A DNA stretch of 63,973 bases from assembly GCA_013388435.1 (NCBI GenBank), contig JACAFE010000030.1, forward strand, positions 1-63,973. Direction: 5' to 3'. Within the stretch, counting starts at the first letter, position 1, and every line of letters begins with the position of its first letter. Shown here piece after piece: positions 1-63,973 of this stretch. The DNA is from Nitrospirota bacterium. Lineage in GTDB: Bacteria; Nitrospirota; Thermodesulfovibrionia; Thermodesulfovibrionales; SM23-35. A program made the translations under genes and the position numbers. The notes under the pieces are model-generated. The model had not been told where the DNA came from. It saw nothing but the letters and a program-made list of their open reading frames with translations, and searched no databases.

Positions 1-118
<118 letters not shown>

Positions 119-183
119 ATTTAGAATCTTTAAATTCACAAAGTTTGAACTGACTTAAGGGTGTGCTACGCACTTTTTTAGAT

Positions 184-196
184 TTTTCAAAGAACA
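184..196 (-). promoter_or_regulatory. rrn leader boxA antitermination element
   Basis: Minus strand TGTTCTTTGAAAA about 65 nt upstream of the 16S 5' end, matching the boxA consensus (TGCTCTTTAACA / GTTCTTTGAAAA). Confidence 0.65.
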
Positions 197-213
197 AATA
201 CTCAAGAGAAATT

Positions 214-243
214 ATGTTAACTTATATATTAAATTTTTGTCAA
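214..243 (-). promoter_or_regulatory. Candidate sigma70 rrn promoter, overlapping the 3' end of the RLP gene
   Basis: Minus strand TTGACA (243..238), 18-bp spacer, TAACAT (219..214), directly upstream of boxA. Confidence 0.5.
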
Positions 244-56356: not shown

Positions 56357-57670
56357 GTGGGTTTTTTAGTCTTTAAAGGCGGCATTCATCCTGCTGACAA
56401 AAAAGAACTTTCAGCAGACAAAAAGATAACCGAAACAATTAAACCTCCGAAAGTTATAATTCCATTGAGCCAGCATATTGGAGCGCCATGCAAACCAGTT
56501 GTCACAATAAATCAGGAAATAAAAAAAGGTGAATTGATTGGAGAAGCAACAGGTTTTGTTTCTGCTCCAGTTCATTCTTCTGTATCCGGGAAAGTCATAT
56601 CAATTATCGAAATTCCAAATATAATGGGAAGAATGGTTACTTCTGTGGTTGTTGAAAACGATTTTAAAGATGAATGGACATTATTAAAAGACAATCCCGA
56701 TTATATGAAACTTAGCCCCGATGAAATAAAGGAAAAGATTAAAAATGCAGGAATAGTTGGTATGGGCGGAGCTACATTTCCTGCTATAGTCAAACTTTCT
56801 CCTCCTAAAGAAAAACCAATTGATACAGTTATTATAAACGGTTCTGAATGCGAGCCGTATCTCACAGGCGACTATAGATTAATGATAGAAAAACCTTCTG
56901 AAATAATAGAGGGATTGAAAATAATAATGAAAGTTTTGGGAGTATCAAATGGATTTATCGGAATAGAAGACAATAAACCGTTAGCTATCGAATCTCTTAA
57001 AAAAGCGGTTATCAATTCAGAAGGTATTAATATTAAAGTATGCTCTTTACGTACAAGATATCCGCAGGGCGCAGAAAAAATGCTAATAAAAGCGATTACC
57101 GGAAGAGAAGTGCCTCCGAGAGCACTACCCATGGATGTTAAAGTTGTGGTGCATAATGCAGGAACGGCTAATGCAATATATGAAGCTGTTCGTTTTGGCA
57201 AACCATTAATTGACAGAGTTGTAACTGTATCAGGTGAAGGGATTAGAGAGCCTAAAAATCTTCTTGTTAAAATCGGCACACCTATTTCTCATCTAATTGA
57301 AGAATGCGGAGGGCTTAAAGAAAATGCTGTCAAAGTTATTTCCGGTGGCCCGATGATGGGATTTGCGATAGCTTCACTCGATATGCCTGTAACAAAAGGT
57401 ACTTCAGGCATCACTGTACTTACTGAAAAAGAGATTGTGCATACAGAAAAATTTAGACCTTGTATAAAATGTGGAAGGTGTATTGACGCATGTCCCATGG
57501 GACTGATGCCATCAATGTTAAGCGTTTATAGCGAAAGAGGCTTTTTTGAAGGAGCAAAAGAATACAATCTTTTTGATTGTTTTGAATGTGGATGCTGTAC
57601 ATATGTCTGTCCTTCAAAAAGACCAATTGTACATTTAATAAGACTTGCAAAAACACAGGTTAAACCATGA
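56357..57670 (+). CDS. rnfC: Rnf complex subunit C
   Basis: FKGGIHP, GIVGMGGATFP, NGSECEPY, YPQGAEK, GGPMMG and two CxxCxxCxxxCP motifs. GTG start. Confidence 0.95.
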   Translation: MGFLVFKGGIHPADKKELSADKKITETIKPPKVIIPLSQHIGAPCKPVVTINQEIKKGELIGEATGFVSAPVHSSVSGKVISIIEIPNIMGRMVTSVVVENDFKDEWTLLKDNPDYMKLSPDEIKEKIKNAGIVGMGGATFPAIVKLSPPKEKPIDTVIINGSECEPYLTGDYRLMIEKPSEIIEGLKIIMKVLGVSNGFIGIEDNKPLAIESLKKAVINSEGINIKVCSLRTRYPQGAEKMLIKAITGREVPPRALPMDVKVVVHNAGTANAIYEAVRFGKPLIDRVVTVSGEGIREPKNLLVKIGTPISHLIEECGGLKENAVKVISGGPMMGFAIASLDMPVTKGTSGITVLTEKEIVHTEKFRPCIKCGRCIDACPMGLMPSMLSVYSERGFFEGAKEYNLFDCFECGCCTYVCPSKRPIVHLIRLAKTQVKP

Positions 57671-57682
57671 GCATTCTAAATT

Positions 57683-58690
57683 ATGGACAAAGAGAACAAT
57701 CATAGTAAATCATTTATCGTATCAGTTAGTCCCCATATAAGAAGTGATGAATCCACTGGCCGTATTATGTGGAGCGTATCTGCGTCATTACTGCCTGCTG
57801 TGATTATGGGAGCTTATTACTTTGGTCCGCGTGCTATATTTGCGCTGGCATTATGTATTGTGTCATCCGTTTTTTTCGAATTTCTATATCTGAAAATACT
57901 GAAAAAAGATATAACCATAAATGACGGCAGTGCATTCCTAACAGGTCTTCTATTAGGAATGAATCTTCCAGCTTCTGTTCCTTTCTATATACCTGTTGCA
58001 GGTTCATTTTTCGCTATTATAATTACAAAGCAACTATTCGGCGGGCTTGGATATAATATTTTTAATCCTGCATTAATCGGCAGGGCTTTTCTTCTTGTAT
58101 CTTTTCCTAAACTAATGACAGCATGGACAGAACCTTCCCCGGCTTTTATTAAAATTGATGCAATTACAACCGCTACTCCTCTGGGAATATTAAAAGAAGA
58201 AGGATATACAAAACTCATAGAAATTTTTGGAGACAAAGCTAATCTTTATTCACACCTATTGTATGGAAACCGCGCTGGATGCATAGGTGAAACATCAGCC
58301 ATCGCACTTTTATTAGGAGCAGCTTTTCTTTTTTATCGCAGATATATTACCTGGCACATTCCTTTGACTTTTATTGGCACAGCAGCTTTAATTGCATGGA
58401 TATTCGGAGGAAACAGTGGATTGTTTTCAGGTGACCCATTGCTTCATATTCTTAGCGGAGGAATGATGCTTGGAGCTTTCTTCATGGCAACTGATTATGT
58501 AACAAGCCCATCAATGAAAAGCGGGCAGGTTTTATTCGGCATAGGTTGCGGATTCTTAACAATGCTTATAAGATTAAAAGGTGGATATCCTGAAGGTGTA
58601 ATGTTTGCAATACTTATAATGAACTGTTTTTCACCGCTGATTGACAGGGGTTTTAAAAGTAAGATTTTTGGAGCAGTAAAGAAAAAATGA
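57683..58690 (+). CDS. rnfD: Rnf complex subunit D
   Basis: SPHI, KQLFGGLG.NIFNPA, DAITTATPL (FMN-Thr), GCIGETS, FFMATD and PEGVMFAIL. Confidence 0.95.
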   Translation: MDKENNHSKSFIVSVSPHIRSDESTGRIMWSVSASLLPAVIMGAYYFGPRAIFALALCIVSSVFFEFLYLKILKKDITINDGSAFLTGLLLGMNLPASVPFYIPVAGSFFAIIITKQLFGGLGYNIFNPALIGRAFLLVSFPKLMTAWTEPSPAFIKIDAITTATPLGILKEEGYTKLIEIFGDKANLYSHLLYGNRAGCIGETSAIALLLGAAFLFYRRYITWHIPLTFIGTAALIAWIFGGNSGLFSGDPLLHILSGGMMLGAFFMATDYVTSPSMKSGQVLFGIGCGFLTMLIRLKGGYPEGVMFAILIMNCFSPLIDRGFKSKIFGAVKKK

Positions 58691-59277
58691 ATACTAAAGA
58701 TATTATTAAAATTACTCTAAATCTCGTTGTCATTTATCTTATCGGAGGTGCTATTCTTGCATTTGTTTATGCTAAAACATCTCCTATAATGTATAGAAAC
58801 TCTGTAATAGAAAAAGAGCGGGCTCTTAAAAAACTTATGCCCGAGGCTGATAAGATTGATAAACTCGGGGATTGGGTAATACATGACAAACATGCTGAAT
58901 ATTATATAGCGATGAAAGAGAATAAAGTTATTGGTTATTTAATTCAGTCTTTTGGAAAAGGTTATTCAAGTTACATTAACATTCTGACGGCAGTTGACAC
59001 TGACTTTAAAGTTAAAAAGATTGGTATTCTCAGTCATGCTGAAACACCCGGGCTTGGAGATGAAATTGAAAAAGATAATTTCATAAACCAGTTTAAAGAA
59101 AAAGATTTAGATCATCTTAAGGTCTTGAAAACTGATACAAAAGAATATGTTCAAGCTATCTCAGGAGCAACAATCTCAAGCAGGGCAGTCACCGAAGATG
59201 CTGTCAGAAATGCTGTTTCTTTTTTGATTAATAATATAAAGCAAAAAGAGAAATCAGATGATACAGAAAAAAATTAA
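58687..59277 (+). CDS. rnfG: Rnf complex subunit G
   Basis: N-terminal TM helix, GKGYSS, HAETPGLG and ISGATISS (FMN-Thr). Confidence 0.93.
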   Translation: MNTKDIIKITLNLVVIYLIGGAILAFVYAKTSPIMYRNSVIEKERALKKLMPEADKIDKLGDWVIHDKHAEYYIAMKENKVIGYLIQSFGKGYSSYINILTAVDTDFKVKKIGILSHAETPGLGDEIEKDNFINQFKEKDLDHLKVLKTDTKEYVQAISGATISSRAVTEDAVRNAVSFLINNIKQKEKSDDTEKN

Positions 59278-59872
59278 TTATTACGAAGTCATTAAAAACG
59301 GAATTTTCAAGGAAAATACTATTTTCAAACTCGCATTGAGTTTATGCCCTTCTATAGCTGTTACGAACAATCTAAGAAATGGTGTTTTAATGGGCACAGC
59401 AGTTCTTTTTGTGCAGGTAATGGTTAATATTACTATTTCCCTGATGAGACATTTTATTCATCCAAGAATCAGGCTGCCGATATTCATGCTTGTAATATCT
59501 GGCTGGGTTACAATAACAGACATGTCAATGGCAGCTTTTGCTCCTGAAGCATATAAACAGATGGGGCTTTATATACAGTTAATAGTCGCATTCGCTTCTA
59601 TTCTTGCGCGCGCTGAAATGTTTGCAAGTAAAAACCGTTTTATACCCTCGATGTTTGATGGAATAGGAATGGGACTCGGTTTTTTATTCGCGCTTAGTCT
59701 TATAAGCTTTTTCAGGGAATTGCTCGGTAAAGGTTCCCTCTGGGGATATCAGATTATAAATGCAAAACCCTTGCTAATTTTCATTCTGCCTGCAGGAGGG
59801 TTTATTGCTGTAGGAATTTTAATGGGAATATTCAACTGGATTTATGGCAAATATGAAAATAAAAGTTATTAA
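59258..59872 (+). CDS. rnfE: Rnf complex subunit E
   Basis: LSLCPSIAVT, IRLPIF, FRELLG and PAGGF. Confidence 0.92.
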   Translation: MIQKKINYYEVIKNGIFKENTIFKLALSLCPSIAVTNNLRNGVLMGTAVLFVQVMVNITISLMRHFIHPRIRLPIFMLVISGWVTITDMSMAAFAPEAYKQMGLYIQLIVAFASILARAEMFASKNRFIPSMFDGIGMGLGFLFALSLISFFRELLGKGSLWGYQIINAKPLLIFILPAGGFIAVGILMGIFNWIYGKYENKSY

Positions 59873-59890
59873 TCATACATAGGAGAAAAA

Positions 59891-60484
59891 ATGAGTTCAG
59901 AGTTCGTAAAGGTTTTCGAGCTAATTATTTCTGCTTCTCTTATAAATAATTTTGTGTTCACAAGATTTCTTGGATTATGCATATTTTTTGGTGTTTCAAG
60001 AAGAATGGAAACTGCTATTGGCATGAGCATTACATTTACTTCTGTTATGATGATCAGTTCGGGACTTAGCTGGCTCGTATTTAATTATGTACTTGTACCA
60101 TGGGATATTACTTTTTTAAAGATAATTATCTTTATAGGAATTGTTGCAGGTTTTGTTCAGGCTTCAGACACTATTATGAGAAAAATTTCTCCTGTTCTTT
60201 ATCATAAACTCGGTATTTATTTGGCGCTGATTTCAACCAACTGTATAATTCTTGCAGTCCCTCTGATTAATGCTGGAGAACGCTACAGCTTTATTGAAAG
60301 TATTTCTTTTGCATTCGGTTCAGGAATAGGGTTTGCTCTTGCACTGATAATTATGGCGAGTATCAGGGAAAGGCTCGAACTTGCTGATGTGCCAAAACCT
60401 TTCAGAGGAACACCAATAGCTTTCATAGTCACAGGACTCATAGCCTTAGCCTTTGCAGGTTTTTCTGGACTAATAAAAATTTAA
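59891..60484 (+). CDS. rnfA: Rnf complex subunit A
   Basis: NNFVFTRFLGLC, LALISTNC and IRERL...VP..F.G.PIAF. Confidence 0.93.
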   Translation: MSSEFVKVFELIISASLINNFVFTRFLGLCIFFGVSRRMETAIGMSITFTSVMMISSGLSWLVFNYVLVPWDITFLKIIIFIGIVAGFVQASDTIMRKISPVLYHKLGIYLALISTNCIILAVPLINAGERYSFIESISFAFGSGIGFALALIIMASIRERLELADVPKPFRGTPIAFIVTGLIALAFAGFSGLIKI

Positions 60485-60493
60485 GGGGTTTGA

Positions 60494-61636
60494 ATGATAG
60501 AGTTAATTGATCTTTTAAATCTAATTTTATCAGGGCTTAACTATATTATTCCCCATACAGGAGTTGGGGGCGGAGTAGAAGCAAAAGAATATGTAGAAAT
60601 CATCCCATTAATTAAATACACACTTATATTTCTTGCGGGAATAAGCATAATTTTTGGGCTCGGTCTTGCTTTTGCTGCCAAAAAATTTTCAGTTGAGGTT
60701 GATCCACGTGTTCAGGCGGTTCTTGATGTTCTTGCTCACGCTCATTGAGGCGCATGCGGGTTCGCAGGTTGCGAACAATATGCTGAAGCTGTTGTAAAAA
60801 AAGCTGAAGTCCCCCCTAACCTTTGCACTCCCGGCGGAGCTGCCACTGCAGAAGCTGTTGCAGGTATAACTGGGAAAAAAGTAACTTTAAAAGAACCTGA
60901 ATTTGCACGCATTATATGCAAGGGTGGATGGAGTAAATCATCCAAAAAATTTAAATACGAAGGTGTTAAAGATTGTAGAGCAGCGATGTTAACAGCAGGA
61001 GGAGATAAATCCTGTGTCTATGGATGTCTCGGATATGGAACATGTTCAAGGGTATGTCCATTTGGCGCAATAACAATGACCGATGATCATCTGCCTTTTA
61101 TAGATATAACAAAATGCACTGGTTGCAGAAAATGTGAAGCAGCCTGCCCACGAAAAGTTATCAAAGTTCTACCTTCTTCAAAACAGGTTCTTGTAACCTG
61201 CAATTCGAAGGACAAGGGTGCCGGGACAAAAAAGAATTGTAAGACAGGTTGTATTGCCTGCGGTATTTGTGTAAAAACATGTCCTTTTGATGCTGCTTTA
61301 ATTGAAAATAATCTTTCAAGAATAGATATTGAAAAGTGTAGAGTCTGTGGTTTATGCTTTAATAAATGTCCTACCGGCGCAATAACTGATTATATACCTC
61401 AAAGACCGAAAGCTTTTATAAATGACCGTTGCATTGGTTGCGGCATTTGTGCTAAAGTATGTCCCGTCAATGCACCATTTGGTGAATCCAAGAAATTACA
61501 CAAGATAGATGGCAACAAATGTATAGGTTGCGGAATATGCACAGAAAAATGTCCTGTGCAGGCTATTGAAGGAACTTTCAACACTGCTAAAGTGCTTGCT
61601 GAAGCAGCAAAGAAGAAAAAGAATCAGGCAGCTTAA
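60494..61636 (+). CDS. rnfB: Rnf complex subunit B, 380 aa, with an in-frame TGA (codon 85) read as probable selenocysteine
   Basis: ORFs 60494..60748 and 60986..61636 are in the same frame and the sequence between them is open. The joined protein reads DPRV..VLDVLAHAH-[TGA]-GACGFAGCEQYA...CTPGG (RnfB FeS domain) and carries six ferredoxin-type Cys motifs. Confidence 0.9.
60752..60783 (+). promoter_or_regulatory. Bacterial SECIS-like stem-loop directly after the rnfB TGA
   Basis: GCATG-CGG-GTTCGCA-GGT-TGCGAAC-AA-TATGC: a 5-bp lower stem, a perfect 7-bp upper stem and a G-starting apical loop 18 nt after the TGA. Confidence 0.75.
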
Positions 61637-61683: not shown

Positions 61684-61768
61684 CCATAGATTTATGGAAT
61701 AAAATTATGGGTTAATATATACCCACTCATCGAGGGGTTTAAATTAATAATTGAGGAGGTATTGGTTT

Positions 61769-62503
61769 ATGAAGTTATCAAGGTTTTCAGGTATTATTTT
61801 ATCTTTGTTTGTTATTTTAGCTTTTTCCGGTCTTGTATTTGCAGGAAGTGCAGGAGACGAAGCCCTGCAGAAATTACTCGATGGAAACAAAAGGTATGTC
61901 GAAGGCAAGTTTGCCAGCAAAGACCTTGGTGATTCAAGAAGAACCGAAATCTTAAAAGGCGGACAGCATCCTTTTGCAACAATTATTAGTTGTTCTGATT
62001 CAAGAGTTCCCCCTGAACATATTTTTGACCAGGGATTAGGTGATATTTTTATAGTAAGAGTTGCAGGCAATGTTGTTGATCCAATTGCACTCGGAAGTAT
62101 TGAATATGGCGTAGAACATGTTCATACGCCTTTGCTCATGATTCTTGGACATTCAGATTGTGGTGCTGTAAAAGCTACAATGGAAACAAAAGGTGAACCT
62201 GAAGGGAATATAGGTGCGATTGTTAAAAAAATCCAGCCTGCTGTAAAGAAAGCAAAGAAAAAAGGCGGTTCAAAAGACGAAATTCTTGAGACAGCTATTA
62301 AAGAAAATGTAATGAATGTATATGCTGATGTAATGAAAAGCCCTGTTGTTAAAGAACTTGTACATGAAGGAAAACTTAAGATAGTAGTTGCTGAATACAA
62401 TCTTTCAAATGGCAAAGTGGAAATGCTCGAACTTCCAAAAGTAAAACATGAAATGAAAAAATCAGAGCATAAAGCAGAAAAAAAGACTGAAAAAGCCCAC
62501 TAA
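61769..62503 (+). CDS. Exported beta-class carbonic anhydrase
   Basis: Signal peptide after SD GAGGAGG. Motifs CSDSRV, RVAGN and GHSDCGAV. Lys/His/Glu-rich tail. Confidence 0.92.
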   Translation: MKLSRFSGIILSLFVILAFSGLVFAGSAGDEALQKLLDGNKRYVEGKFASKDLGDSRRTEILKGGQHPFATIISCSDSRVPPEHIFDQGLGDIFIVRVAGNVVDPIALGSIEYGVEHVHTPLLMILGHSDCGAVKATMETKGEPEGNIGAIVKKIQPAVKKAKKKGGSKDEILETAIKENVMNVYADVMKSPVVKELVHEGKLKIVVAEYNLSNGKVEMLELPKVKHEMKKSEHKAEKKTEKAH

Positions 62504-62641: not shown

Positions 62642-63973
62642 ATGAATGAAATTCTTATAAAATTTCTCAAATCCAATCCAATTATTGAAAAATATCATTT
62701 AACTAATGATGAAATTTCTGAGCTTGCATTTTTTCTTAGAAAATACTGTATTTCTGAATATATAAAAGATGTTGTTAAAATGGTTGAAGATGTAATTAGC
62801 ATTGACCCTGAACTTAACTGGAAAGACATATTAGGTGAAGCAGCGAAAAGGATTACTGAATTTCTTCATGCTGAAGCTGCTTCGATAAGAATATTCGACC
62901 CAAAAACTGAAAATCTCGTTGCTTTTGGCTCGTATAATTTTAAAGAAATAAGCAGATTGAAAAGCATCCCTGTAAATAAAACCGTTGCAGGGACAGTTAT
63001 AAAAAGCGGCCGCAGTTATCTTGTCCCAGATATTATGAATGAGCCAGCATATGCAAACAAAGATATAGTTAAAATTTATGGTTTTAACTCCTTAATGGCA
63101 GTGCCTTTAAATATTCCTGGATTCTTAAAAAATGAACCTGATATACCCGGCGCAATCCAGATTTATTATAAAGAAAAAAATCGTGAATTCGACCCGCTCG
63201 AGGTTTCAAATGCTGAATTAATGGCACGGAGAGTAAGTTATGTTCTTGCAAAAAAGAGAATTATTGACCTTCAAAAATTAAATCAGCAAAAAGAAAAAAT
63301 AACAGAAAAAATATTTGTAAAACTCAGCCACAGGGAAGGCATTAAACTCAAAGATGTTTTCATGACAATGATTCCTGAATTGGTTGACATATTGCTTATC
63401 CAGAGCTGTTCGCTTTTTTCTATAATGCCTGACAGAAAGCATGTTAAAATTGAGCTTGAATATCCGATTGGTCAGCAAAGTCATGATATAACCTGTCTTT
63501 TTAAAATAGAAGAGCATCCTTATTTTGACGCTCTGATTAATTTTCAAGGAGCCCGTGTTGATAATGAATATGAACGCATAGAATCTTCATACATTCTCAT
63601 TAAAGACCCCTTGAACAGTTCTTTATCAAACGACGAATTAAAAAAATACGCATTAAAAAATAATGTAAACTCTGTCCTTCTTATCCCTCTTAAAGCCAAT
63701 GAAGACATAAATTATTTCCTAATTTTCTACGCTATAGACAGAAGGCAGGAGTTTACTGAAAATGAAATAGAGCTTTTAACTTTTTTCGGCAAAGAAATTA
63801 TGAAAGCTTTAAGGATGGAAAAACTTGATGACGTGCTTCATGATTTTAAAAATCCTGCGATCGCAATAGGAGGTTTTGCCAAAAGAGCGATTAGATTACT
63901 TCAAAACAGTGATCTAAATTCAACCAAAAATAAAATAAATGAATATCTTGAAATAATATCACAGGAAGCTTTA
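62642..63973 (+). CDS. GAF-GAF sensor histidine kinase, truncated by the window end (absent from the ORF track)
   Basis: Open frame from the ATG at 62642 to the edge. Two GAF-like segments (SLMAVPL, SVLLIPL), then the H-box LHDFKNPAIAIGGF. Confidence 0.85.
   Translation, partial: MNEILIKFLKSNPIIEKYHLTNDEISELAFFLRKYCISEYIKDVVKMVEDVISIDPELNWKDILGEAAKRITEFLHAEAASIRIFDPKTENLVAFGSYNFKEISRLKSIPVNKTVAGTVIKSGRSYLVPDIMNEPAYANKDIVKIYGFNSLMAVPLNIPGFLKNEPDIPGAIQIYYKEKNREFDPLEVSNAELMARRVSYVLAKKRIIDLQKLNQQKEKITEKIFVKLSHREGIKLKDVFMTMIPELVDILLIQSCSLFSIMPDRKHVKIELEYPIGQQSHDITCLFKIEEHPYFDALINFQGARVDNEYERIESSYILIKDPLNSSLSNDELKKYALKNNVNSVLLIPLKANEDINYFLIFYAIDRRQEFTENEIELLTFFGKEIMKALRMEKLDDVLHDFKNPAIAIGGFAKRAIRLLQNSDLNSTKNKINEYLEIISQEAL

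What the first reader, a model, noticed from the sequence alone, without database searches (positions are those of the whole stretch)
60494..61636. Probable selenocysteine-ligated RnfB: in-frame TGA at an Fe-S ligand plus a SECIS-like hairpin
Seen: the single TGA (60746..60748) sits exactly where RnfB has the first Cys of its N-terminal cluster motif (usually xxxNCGACGxxGC; here AHAH-U-GACGFAGC). The frame continues uninterrupted to 61636. Immediately downstream is a two-tier hairpin with a perfect GTTCGCA/TGCGAAC stem and a G-starting loop 18 nt from the TGA. The codons forming it (TGC GGG TTC GCA GGT TGC) are GC-rich choices in an AT-rich gene. Established: bacterial Sec insertion uses UGA plus an adjacent SECIS bound by SelB, and RnfB is the ferredoxin-entry subunit of the ion-pumping Rnf complex. 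Inference: Se ligates this cluster and could tune its potential or make Rnf activity selenium-dependent. Automatic annotation would call this a broken gene. I cannot confirm whether Sec-RnfB has already been catalogued in selenoproteome surveys.
Basis: partly seen in the sequence, partly recalled or inferred. Interest (0 to 1): 0.85.

Follow-up and report, generated by a model that had tools for sequence, protein, structure and literature searches.

The report
Selenocysteine codon in Rnf subunit B
The stop-like TGA inside this rnfB gene is almost certainly a real selenocysteine codon with its own RNA hairpin signal, replacing a cysteine that holds an iron-sulfur cluster of the Rnf ion pump; gene callers miss it, but selenoprotein catalogues already list the family under a generic name.

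Summary
The gene rnfB (60494-61636) is the last gene of an rnfCDGEAB operon in an uncultured hot-spring Thermodesulfovibrionales (Nitrospirota) genome. It has one in-frame TGA (60746-60748), at the first Cys of the U-x2-C-x4-C-x17-C motif of the mobile FdI [4Fe-4S] domain.

Thirteen distinct orthologues in one family carry TGA in this column, and 45 or more carry TGC/TGT. In the TGA forms only, the five codons that build the hairpin stem (60760-60776) are identical at their synonymous sites (5 of 8 invariant codons out of 157; P about 3e-9). The Cys forms vary there.

The part after the TGA is under strong purifying selection (dN/dS 0.096). TGA is otherwise an ordinary stop, there is no restart codon and no second rnfB. 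Assemblies from three independent studies show the same TGA.

The genome has tRNA-Sec, SelA, SelB and other Sec genes. SelD is missing from the bin, but a SelD-bearing contig occurs at about the same depth as the rnfB contig in five runs.

Reviews from 2022 and 2026 list a UxxC selenoprotein family under PRK07118/NF005503, which is this protein's best NCBIfam model, without calling it RnfB. So this is a new member of a known kind.

The parts
56357..57670 (+). rnfC (no in-frame TGA)
   Evidence: Pfam RnfC_N, Complex1_51K, SLBB and Fer4 domains.
57683..58690 (+). rnfD
   Evidence: PF03116 NQR2_RnfD_RnfE, E = 2e-119.
58687..59277 (+). rnfG
   Evidence: PF04205 FMN_bind.
59258..59872 (+). rnfE-type membrane subunit
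   Evidence: PF02508 Rnf-Nqr. Assigned as E from the usual CDGEAB gene order.
59891..60484 (+). rnfA-type membrane subunit
   Evidence: PF02508 Rnf-Nqr.
60494..61636 (+). rnfB, 380 codons including one UGA (Sec85). It has an N-terminal membrane helix, the FdI domain and a polyferredoxin part.
   Evidence: NF005503, 306 bits against a cut-off of 252; 9eri_B E = 1e-82, 7zc6_B E = 5e-68.
60746..60748 (+). UGA read as selenocysteine (U85), the first ligand position of the U-x2-C-x4-C-x17-C motif
   Evidence: It aligns with TGC/TGT in 45 or more orthologues and with TGA in 12 others. The same letters stand in contigs of runs X1, X3 and X4.
60760..60776 (+). SECIS upper stem-loop: stem 60760-60765/60771-60776 (plus A60766-U60770 in this genome), loop N-G-G-N-U with GG at +22/+23 from the U of UGA
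   Evidence: Pair probabilities are 0.93-0.95. It is 100% paired and invariant in the Sec forms, against 73% paired in the Cys forms. Stem codons +3, +4, +5, +8 and +9 are invariant at synonymous sites only in the TGA forms, P about 3e-9.
60752..60783 (+). Possible lower tier (60752-56 with 60779-83) enclosing the upper stem. It is not Sec-specific.
   Evidence: It is part of the minimum-energy fold but is equally pairable in the Cys forms.
60755..60757 (+). Cys88 codon, second ligand of the FdI cluster motif
   Evidence: and the alignment.
60770..60772 (+). Cys93 codon, third ligand. It also forms part of the 3' arm of the SECIS stem.
60824..60826 (+). Cys111 codon, fourth ligand
   Evidence: The motif is described in PMC9588780.

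Best explanation
The gene rnfB encodes a full-length, 380-residue selenoprotein. During translation, the hairpin 12-28 nt downstream of the UGA is bound by SelB carrying Sec-tRNA(Sec), and this inserts selenocysteine at codon 85 instead of terminating.

Sec85 takes the place of the first cysteine of the U-x2-C-x4-C-x17-C motif. That motif holds the [4Fe-4S] cluster of the small, flexibly tethered FdI domain of RnfB. This cluster is thought to shuttle electrons between the polyferredoxin part of RnfB and the metal centre between RnfA and RnfE in the membrane.

Shown here: the UGA/Cys correspondence, RNA-level selection on the hairpin in UGA forms only, purifying selection on the protein after the UGA, and the presence of tRNA-Sec, SelA, SelB and other Sec genes.

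Inferred: that selenium actually ligates the cluster, and that this changes its potential, kinetics or robustness. Because there is no second rnfB, Rnf activity in this organism would depend on Sec decoding.
For:: a single in-frame TGA.

13 distinct orthologues with TGA and 45 or more with TGC/TGT in the same column, all in Thermodesulfovibrionales.

among the 13 TGA forms, only 8 of 157 amino-acid-invariant degenerate codons are codon-invariant, and 5 of those are the stem codons (background 2%, P about 3e-9). None is invariant in the Cys forms.

the upper helix is 100% paired in Sec forms and 73% in Cys forms. All TGA forms have Phe (TTC) where most Cys forms have Tyr (TAT), which breaks the stem.

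dN/dS downstream of the TGA is 0.096 at dS 0.81 (G000 vs G004).

there is no in-frame start until codon 165, TGA ends 200 of 934 long frames, and the hairpin has pair probabilities of 0.93-0.95.

only one rnfB in the genome.

the TGA is identical in assemblies from three studies.

tRNA-Sec(UCA), SelB and SelA are present.

other Sec genes are present, namely FdhA with a GGUC-loop hairpin at the same +22/+23 spacing, a DsbC-like UxxC protein, a hydrogenase and NuoB.

U85 aligns with the first Cys of the FdI cluster motif of solved RnfB structures.
Against: No direct evidence of selenium in the protein.

SelD is missing from this bin and from that of the closest relative G004. At the position where two same-genus genomes have selD, this genome has only a 766-bp spacer.

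The stem shows no covariation, only invariance. Part of its pairing potential is forced by the amino-acid sequence, since Cys forms are 73% paired.

Rfam has no model that matches the hairpin.

The FdI cluster is poorly resolved in all Rnf structures, so the ligand role rests on the motif alignment.
Confidence: 0.88

Rival explanations
1. In this genome the UGA is read as cysteine rather than selenocysteine. This could happen because SelD has been lost and SelB delivers Cys-tRNA(Sec), or because the second SelB with its Sec-like tRNA-Cys (a selC*/selB*-type pair on contig C20) serves SECIS-marked codons when selenium is lacking.
For: SelD is absent from the bins of G000 and G004. A 96-nt Sec-like tRNA scores 57.7 bits on RF01852, and ARAGORN calls it Cys. 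It lies directly upstream of a second SelB (TIGR00475, 380 bits) next to YedF and an SclA-like desulfurase. PMC5389517 shows that selC* tRNA-Cys with a UCA anticodon can suppress UGA.
Against: The tRNA here has anticodon GCA, which reads UGC/UGU and not UGA. SelA and canonical tRNA-Sec(UCA) are retained. A contig that ends in a SelD gene co-occurs at the same depth in five runs from four studies. Eight of the ten TGA-rnfB genomes found have SelD. The second SelB does not track TGA-rnfB: 5 of 10 TGA genomes have it, and so do 8 non-TGA genomes.
Confidence: 0.06
2. Translation stops at the UGA. The gene is split into an 84-residue membrane anchor and a separately initiated soluble polyferredoxin.
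For: Gene callers would produce these pieces (ORFs 60494-60748 and 60986-61636). No full-length protein above 75% identity exists in the databases.
Against: The first in-frame start after the TGA is codon 165 and has no Shine-Dalgarno sequence. The cut would fall inside the cluster motif and remove the FdI domain. Codons after the TGA are under purifying selection. The hairpin is conserved at synonymous sites.
Confidence: 0.02
3. The TGA is a recent nonsense mutation (a pseudogene) or an assembly or sequencing error.
For: None beyond the presence of a stop codon.
Against: The same TGA is present in 13 distinct orthologues across several genera. It is identical in contigs from three studies. 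All 13 frames are otherwise intact, with dN/dS about 0.1 or lower. This is the only rnfB in an otherwise intact rnf operon.
Confidence: 0.01
4. UGA is reassigned genome-wide to a sense codon (Trp or Gly, as in tables 4 and 25).
For: None.
Against: TGA ends 200 of 934 open frames of at least 300 codons. The column aligns with Cys, not Trp or Gly.
Confidence: 0.005

Closest known systems
[quoted passage not shown] 2022 (PMC9312934) and the 2026 review PMC13188914
   Same: This protein's best NCBIfam model is NF005503 (306 bits against a cut-off of 252). It has the UxxC motif (U-G-A-C). [quoted passage not shown]
   Different: The catalogues never call the family RnfB or link it to the Rnf complex: 'Rnf' occurs 0 times in both reviews. 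Their representatives are ABC78902.1 and WP_258165141.1, and I could not fetch either to confirm that the Sec is in the same column. The Thermodesulfovibrionales clade has its own invariant SECIS.
Cys-type RnfB of solved Rnf complexes (A. woodii 9ERI_B, C. tetanomorphum 7ZC6_B, A. vinelandii 8AHX_B)
   Same: Same architecture: a membrane helix, a flexible FdI [4Fe-4S] domain with Cx2Cx4Cx17C, and a polyferredoxin part. Same operon context.
   Different: The first cluster ligand is Sec instead of Cys. This protein also has an extra C-terminal ferredoxin module (380 aa, against 274 aa for 7ZC6_B and 333 aa for 9ERI_B).
E. coli fdhF-type bacterial SECIS (SelB-binding hairpin just downstream of UGA)
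   Same: A hairpin directly after the UGA with GG at +22/+23 from the U of UGA. This genome's own FdhA has the same spacing, with a GGUC loop. The E. coli numbering is from memory.
   Different: The stem sequence is different, there is no bulged U, and loop position +24 is variable. Binding by this organism's SelB is untested.
'RnfC' selenoprotein of Peng et al. 2016 (PMC5029168), which is really PrdC (PMC3091704)
   Same: An Rnf-related name in selenoprotein lists.
   Different: It is a different protein, a different motif (C-terminal CxxU) and a different pathway (proline reductase). The rnfC of this operon has no TGA.

Membership tests
RnfB (subunit B of the Rnf complex) | Encoded in an rnf operon together with rnfC, D, G, E and A | tested here: met
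   RnfC, RnfD, FMN_bind (RnfG) and two Rnf-Nqr genes lie directly upstream (56357-60484).
RnfB (subunit B of the Rnf complex) | N-terminal membrane helix, FdI domain (PF04060) with a Cx2Cx4Cx17C motif, and a polyferredoxin part | tested here: met
   Searches give U85, C88, C93 and C111. One search aligns residues 47-363 to 9eri_B (E = 1e-82). One search gives NF005503 and TIGR01944 above their cut-offs. The first ligand is U, not C.
Bacterial SelB/SECIS-dependent selenoprotein gene | In-frame UGA aligned with Cys in orthologues | tested here: met
   13 TGA forms against 45 or more TGC/TGT forms in one column.
Bacterial SelB/SECIS-dependent selenoprotein gene | Stem-loop directly downstream of the UGA with G in the apical loop, conserved among Sec forms | tested here: met
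   The support is invariance at synonymous sites (P about 3e-9). There is no covariation, and there is no Rfam model to compare against.
Bacterial SelB/SECIS-dependent selenoprotein gene | tRNA-Sec, SelA and SelB in the genome | tested here: met
   tRNA-Sec UCA, 72 bits; SelB on C27; SelA, E = 4e-161.
Bacterial SelB/SECIS-dependent selenoprotein gene | SelD (selenophosphate synthetase) in the genome | tested here: inconclusive
   SelD is not in the bin. An AT-rich contig (L107) ends in a SelD N-terminus with its own UGA. It is present at 99-100% identity and at about the same depth as the rnfB contig in five runs from four studies.
Bacterial SelB/SECIS-dependent selenoprotein gene | Selenium actually incorporated at the UGA | not testable with these tools
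   This needs 75Se labelling or mass spectrometry.
[quoted passage not shown] | Matches NF005503 and has the UxxC motif | tested here: met
   Searches (306 bits against 252; U-G-A-C), and for the catalogue entries.
[quoted passage not shown] | Sec in the same column as the catalogue's representatives (ABC78902.1, WP_258165141.1) | not testable with these tools
   The accessions cannot be fetched here. The main text of the 2008 primary paper does not describe the family.
selC*/selB* cysteine recoding of UGA (Mukai et al., PMC5389517) | Sec-like tRNA-Cys with an opal (UCA) anticodon able to read UGA | tested here: not met
   The Sec-like tRNA on C20 has anticodon GCA, so it is not filed as the decoder of this UGA.

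The most novel reading that the evidence does not exclude
Selenium is a direct ligand of the mobile FdI [4Fe-4S] cluster that hands electrons into the membrane part of Rnf. This would be one instance of a lineage-wide pattern in which Sec replaces Cys ligands of key metal centres in several energy-converting complexes of the same genome: RnfB FdI, the NuoB N2 motif, the N-terminal Ni-binding motif of a [NiFe] hydrogenase, and FdhA. If so, the whole low-potential electron-transport chain is selenium-dependent and tuned by Se ligation. Neither the selenoprotein catalogues nor the Rnf literature discuss this, and it has never been tested biochemically.
Probability: 0.4. Interest if true: 0.65.

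Novelty: new member of a known kind. Interest (0 to 1): 0.35.

Why it matters
Rnf is a central ferredoxin:NAD+ ion pump of anaerobes. The FdI cluster sits at the proposed gating step between the soluble and membrane parts. A natural Sec/Cys pair at one of its ligands, with close Sec and Cys orthologues even within one genus, is a ready-made system for asking what a selenolate ligand does to a [4Fe-4S] cluster. Neither the 2022 Rnf structure paper (PMC9588780) nor the 2025 review (PMC12174285) was found to mention a Sec form; the review has no occurrence of 'selen' at all.

On the practical side, gene callers split or truncate the gene. Metabolic reconstructions of these Nitrospirota would then wrongly score Rnf as broken. 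The finding itself is not new to selenoproteome catalogues, and the same thing has turned up repeatedly in this scan.

Tried and rejected
1. RNAfold of 60740-60800 with upstream context gave a different minimum-energy fold and z = -0.49. Thermodynamics alone is therefore uninformative, and I used comparative data instead.

2. Rfam at gathering threshold and at E up to 10 found no SECIS-like family.

3. Covariation in the stem: none. All six pairs are invariant, so the support is synonymous-site conservation only.

4. The 'two-tier' claim: the lower tier is not Sec-specific.

5. SelD. The family search, tblastn with a same-genus SelD and a scan of the syntenic spacer all came back negative. I first took the metagenome contig L107 for a relative, because one gene is 77% identical to C65. 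I revised this when its other genes matched G000 only at paralogue level and its depth tracked G000 in five runs. This is still not proof.

6. Link between the second SelB and TGA-rnfB: no clear association.

7. The 2016 catalogue (PMC5029168, table S3) lists 'RnfC' only, which is really PrdC. The main text of the 2008 GOS paper does not mention the family.

8. A single origin of the Sec form cannot be shown. The tree needs 4-5 changes, of which at least 2 are forced by well-supported branches.

Full report
**Observation.** The window holds an rnfC-D-G-E-A-B operon at 56357-61636 (Pfam). The last gene runs from ATG 60494 to TAA 61636 and has a single in-frame TGA at 60746-60748. Read with TGA = U, the product has 380 residues. 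It consists of a hydrophobic N-terminal helix, a PF04060 'FeS' domain with the motif U85-G-A-C88-G-F-A-G-C93-x17-C111, and a polyferredoxin part. Its best NCBIfam model is NF005503, 'RnfABCDGE type electron transport complex subunit B' (306 bits against a cut-off of 252). It aligns over residues 47-363 with RnfB of the solved A. woodii complex (9eri_B, E = 1e-82) and with C. tetanomorphum RnfB (7zc6_B). In those alignments U85 falls on the first Cys of CGGCG[LF][PA]GC.

**Organism.** The genome is 2.15 Mb in 88 contigs, 34.6% G+C and 98% complete. It is an uncultured member of the Thermodesulfovibrionales (Nitrospirota). The stretch is present in hot-spring and sediment metagenomes from several studies.

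**Comparative test.** Among 61 related genomes, ten carry exactly one in-frame TGA in their RnfB orthologue and the rest carry none. After pooling these with named GTDB genomes, there are 13 distinct TGA forms and 45 or more Cys forms. The TGA always aligns with TGC or TGT of the first motif cysteine. In a 401-genome sample of the phylum, the TGA form is confined to one family. On a maximum-likelihood tree the Sec forms make three groups interleaved with Cys forms. The tree needs 4-5 changes, of which at least 2 are forced by well-supported branches. Two Cys forms (L025, L084) sit inside the Sec clade and keep most of the hairpin. This looks like Sec-to-Cys reversion. One gain followed by several losses is the economical reading, but it is not proven.

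**The hairpin.** All 13 TGA forms read TGA GGn GCn TGC GGG TTC GCn GGn TGC GAA CAr.
- Among these 13 there are 157 codon columns that are amino-acid-invariant and degenerate. Only 8 are identical at the codon level, and 5 of those are exactly the stem codons +3, +4, +5, +8 and +9. The background rate is 3 of 152, giving P of about 3e-9. The wobble positions of the two loop codons vary freely.
- Among 45 Cys forms, no column is codon-invariant. Most have Tyr (TAT) where the Sec forms have Phe (TTC), and that breaks the U17-A29 pair.
- The upper helix (G15-C31 to C20-G26, counting the U of UGA as 1) is 100% paired in Sec forms and 73% paired in Cys forms.
- There is no covariation. The evidence is conservation, and I give it that weight.
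- Folded from the UGA onward, the hairpin is the minimum-energy structure, with pair probabilities of 0.93-0.95. With upstream context another fold wins.
- The stem codons are minority choices in this AT-rich genome, with a joint probability of 0.004.
- The loop GG lies at +22/+23, as in this genome's own FdhA Sec site and, from memory, as in E. coli fdhF.
- The amino-acid sequence C-G-[FY]-A-G-C-E already gives the Cys forms most of the pairing. That suggests how a SECIS could arise here through a few synonymous changes plus Tyr to Phe. This is an inference.

**Rivals.**
- Pseudogene or assembly error is excluded. Thirteen lineages share the TGA. Contigs from three studies are identical over 60600-60900. 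dN/dS downstream of the TGA is 0.096 at dS 0.81 between G000 and G004, and dN stays at 0.11-0.21 where dS is saturated.
- A split gene is unlikely. The next in-frame start is codon 165 and has no Shine-Dalgarno sequence, and the cut would fall inside the cluster motif.
- Genome-wide reassignment is excluded, because TGA ends 200 of 934 long frames.
- There is no second rnfB in the genome, so a working Rnf needs read-through.

**Machinery.** The genome has tRNA-Sec(UCA) (72 bits), SelB and SelA. It also has other Sec genes: FdhA (HCARY-U-HSAS), a DsbC-like U-xx-C protein, a [NiFe] hydrogenase large subunit and NuoB.

SelD is the weak point.
- The only hits are ThiL, HypE and PurM paralogues.
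- The nearest relative G004 also lacks SelD, while 57 of 61 relatives have it, always with its own TGA.
- In two same-genus genomes selD sits next to the 86-aa ORF, YedF and SclA-like cluster. In this genome a 766-bp AT-rich spacer lies at that place.
- On the other hand, the metagenomes that hold the window also hold a contig that ends in a SelD N-terminus (MKDKSVKLMEKVRAAG-U-AAKISPGDL). This contig (L107) has 33.5% G+C and matches G000 genes only at paralogue level on scattered contigs.
- L107 is present at 99-100% identity with depths of 10.4, 8.7, 9.9, 16.3 and 4.0. These are five runs from four studies.
- Assemblies break at a widely shared tRNA-Leu 100 nt from selD. That leaves 2-4 kb contigs that binning would drop.
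- I therefore think SelD belongs to this population, but this is not shown.

**What the residue does.** In RnfB the Cx2Cx4Cx17C motif belongs to the small FdI domain. This domain is flexibly tethered between the membrane helix and the polyferredoxin part, and it is proposed to carry one [4Fe-4S] cluster that swings to deliver electrons to the metal centre between RnfA and RnfE (PMC9588780; PMC12174285). The domain is poorly resolved in all structures. The ligand role of position 85 therefore follows from the motif and not from coordinates. That selenium ligates the cluster and alters its properties is inference.

**Known or new.** The 2016 catalogue lists only 'RnfC', which is really PrdC. Earlier notes of this scan claimed that the RnfB family is catalogued under a generic name. 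I checked this. [quoted passage not shown] PMC13188914 (2026) lists the same family as NF005503, UxxC, WP_258165141.1. NF005503 is this protein's top model, so the family is known as a predicted selenoprotein. Neither review uses the word Rnf, the 2025 Rnf review never mentions selenium, and the 2008 paper's main text does not describe the family. I could not fetch the representatives to confirm the column. Public protein sets hold no full-length relative above 75% identity. The 78-100% identical Sec forms are missing as full-length proteins, so gene callers do cut the gene.

**Verdict.** This is a genuine Sec-RnfB, a new lineage-level member of a catalogued but functionally unexamined family.

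**Side observations.** This genome and its family show Sec at metal-ligand positions of several energy-converting complexes, and they carry a selC*-like tRNA-Cys(GCA) with a second SelB. See the separate list of things noticed in passing.

Noticed in passing
Genome contig C49:225-1889 (+), TGA at C49:411 (locus L108); relatives L109, L110, L115, L118: A [NiFe] hydrogenase large subunit has Sec in the N-terminal Ni-binding motif (RICGV-U-PTAH), while the C-terminal motif stays Cys (DPCIACAVH). Three relatives have two TGAs three codons apart (RI-U-GV-U-PTxH), one has a single TGA, and others have RICGVCPTSH. The sequence downstream of the TGA is conserved. From memory, known [NiFeSe] enzymes carry Sec in the C-terminal DPUxxC motif. 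This may deserve its own follow-up.
   Followed up: partly
Genome contig C20:13625-15634 (-) and tRNA at C20:15536-15631 (-) (locus L104:8625-10634): A 96-nt tRNA with a Sec-like fold (57.7 bits on RF01852) but anticodon GCA (Cys) lies directly upstream of a second SelB (TIGR00475, 380 bits). The pair sits beside YedF and an SclA-like cysteine desulfurase. This resembles the selC*/selB* pairs of Mukai et al. (PMC5389517), where selB* was reported only for two deltaproteobacterial orders. The second SelB occurs in about 13 of 37 genomes of this family and in none of 24 from other families of the order.
   Followed up: partly
Genome-wide; L107 (JGI contig Ga0078972_1004505), positions 1-215 (-): selD is missing from this bin and from that of the closest relative G004. 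A 33.5% G+C contig that ends in a Sec-containing SelD N-terminus co-occurs at the same depth in five runs. Assemblies break at a tRNA-Leu(UAG) gene (L107:320-404) next to it.
   Followed up: partly
Genome contig C71, TGA at 58112 (-): NuoB has TGA at the first Cys of the tandem-Cys motif (TFGLA-U-CAIEMM), another Fe-S ligand position. I confirmed only that the TGA and the motif are there.
   Followed up: partly
Genome contigs C58:33637 (+) and C80:37171 (-): These are ordinary selenoprotein genes. One is an FdhA-type formate dehydrogenase (HCARY-U-HSAS) with a GGUC-loop hairpin at +22/+23. The other is a DsbC/G-like protein (DPD-U-PFC) with an AGGA-loop hairpin.
   Followed up: no
Loci L025 (G018) and L084: These are Cys-type rnfB genes nested within the Sec clade. 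They still carry most of the hairpin (GGG TTT GCA GGT TGC GAA in L025, TTC in L084). They look like recent Sec-to-Cys reversions and could serve as natural controls.
   Followed up: no
window 61751-62503 (+) and 62642-63973 (+): Downstream of rnfB lie a beta-class carbonic anhydrase (PF00484) and a GAF-domain protein that runs off the window. Both are ordinary, and no link to the finding was seen.
   Followed up: no
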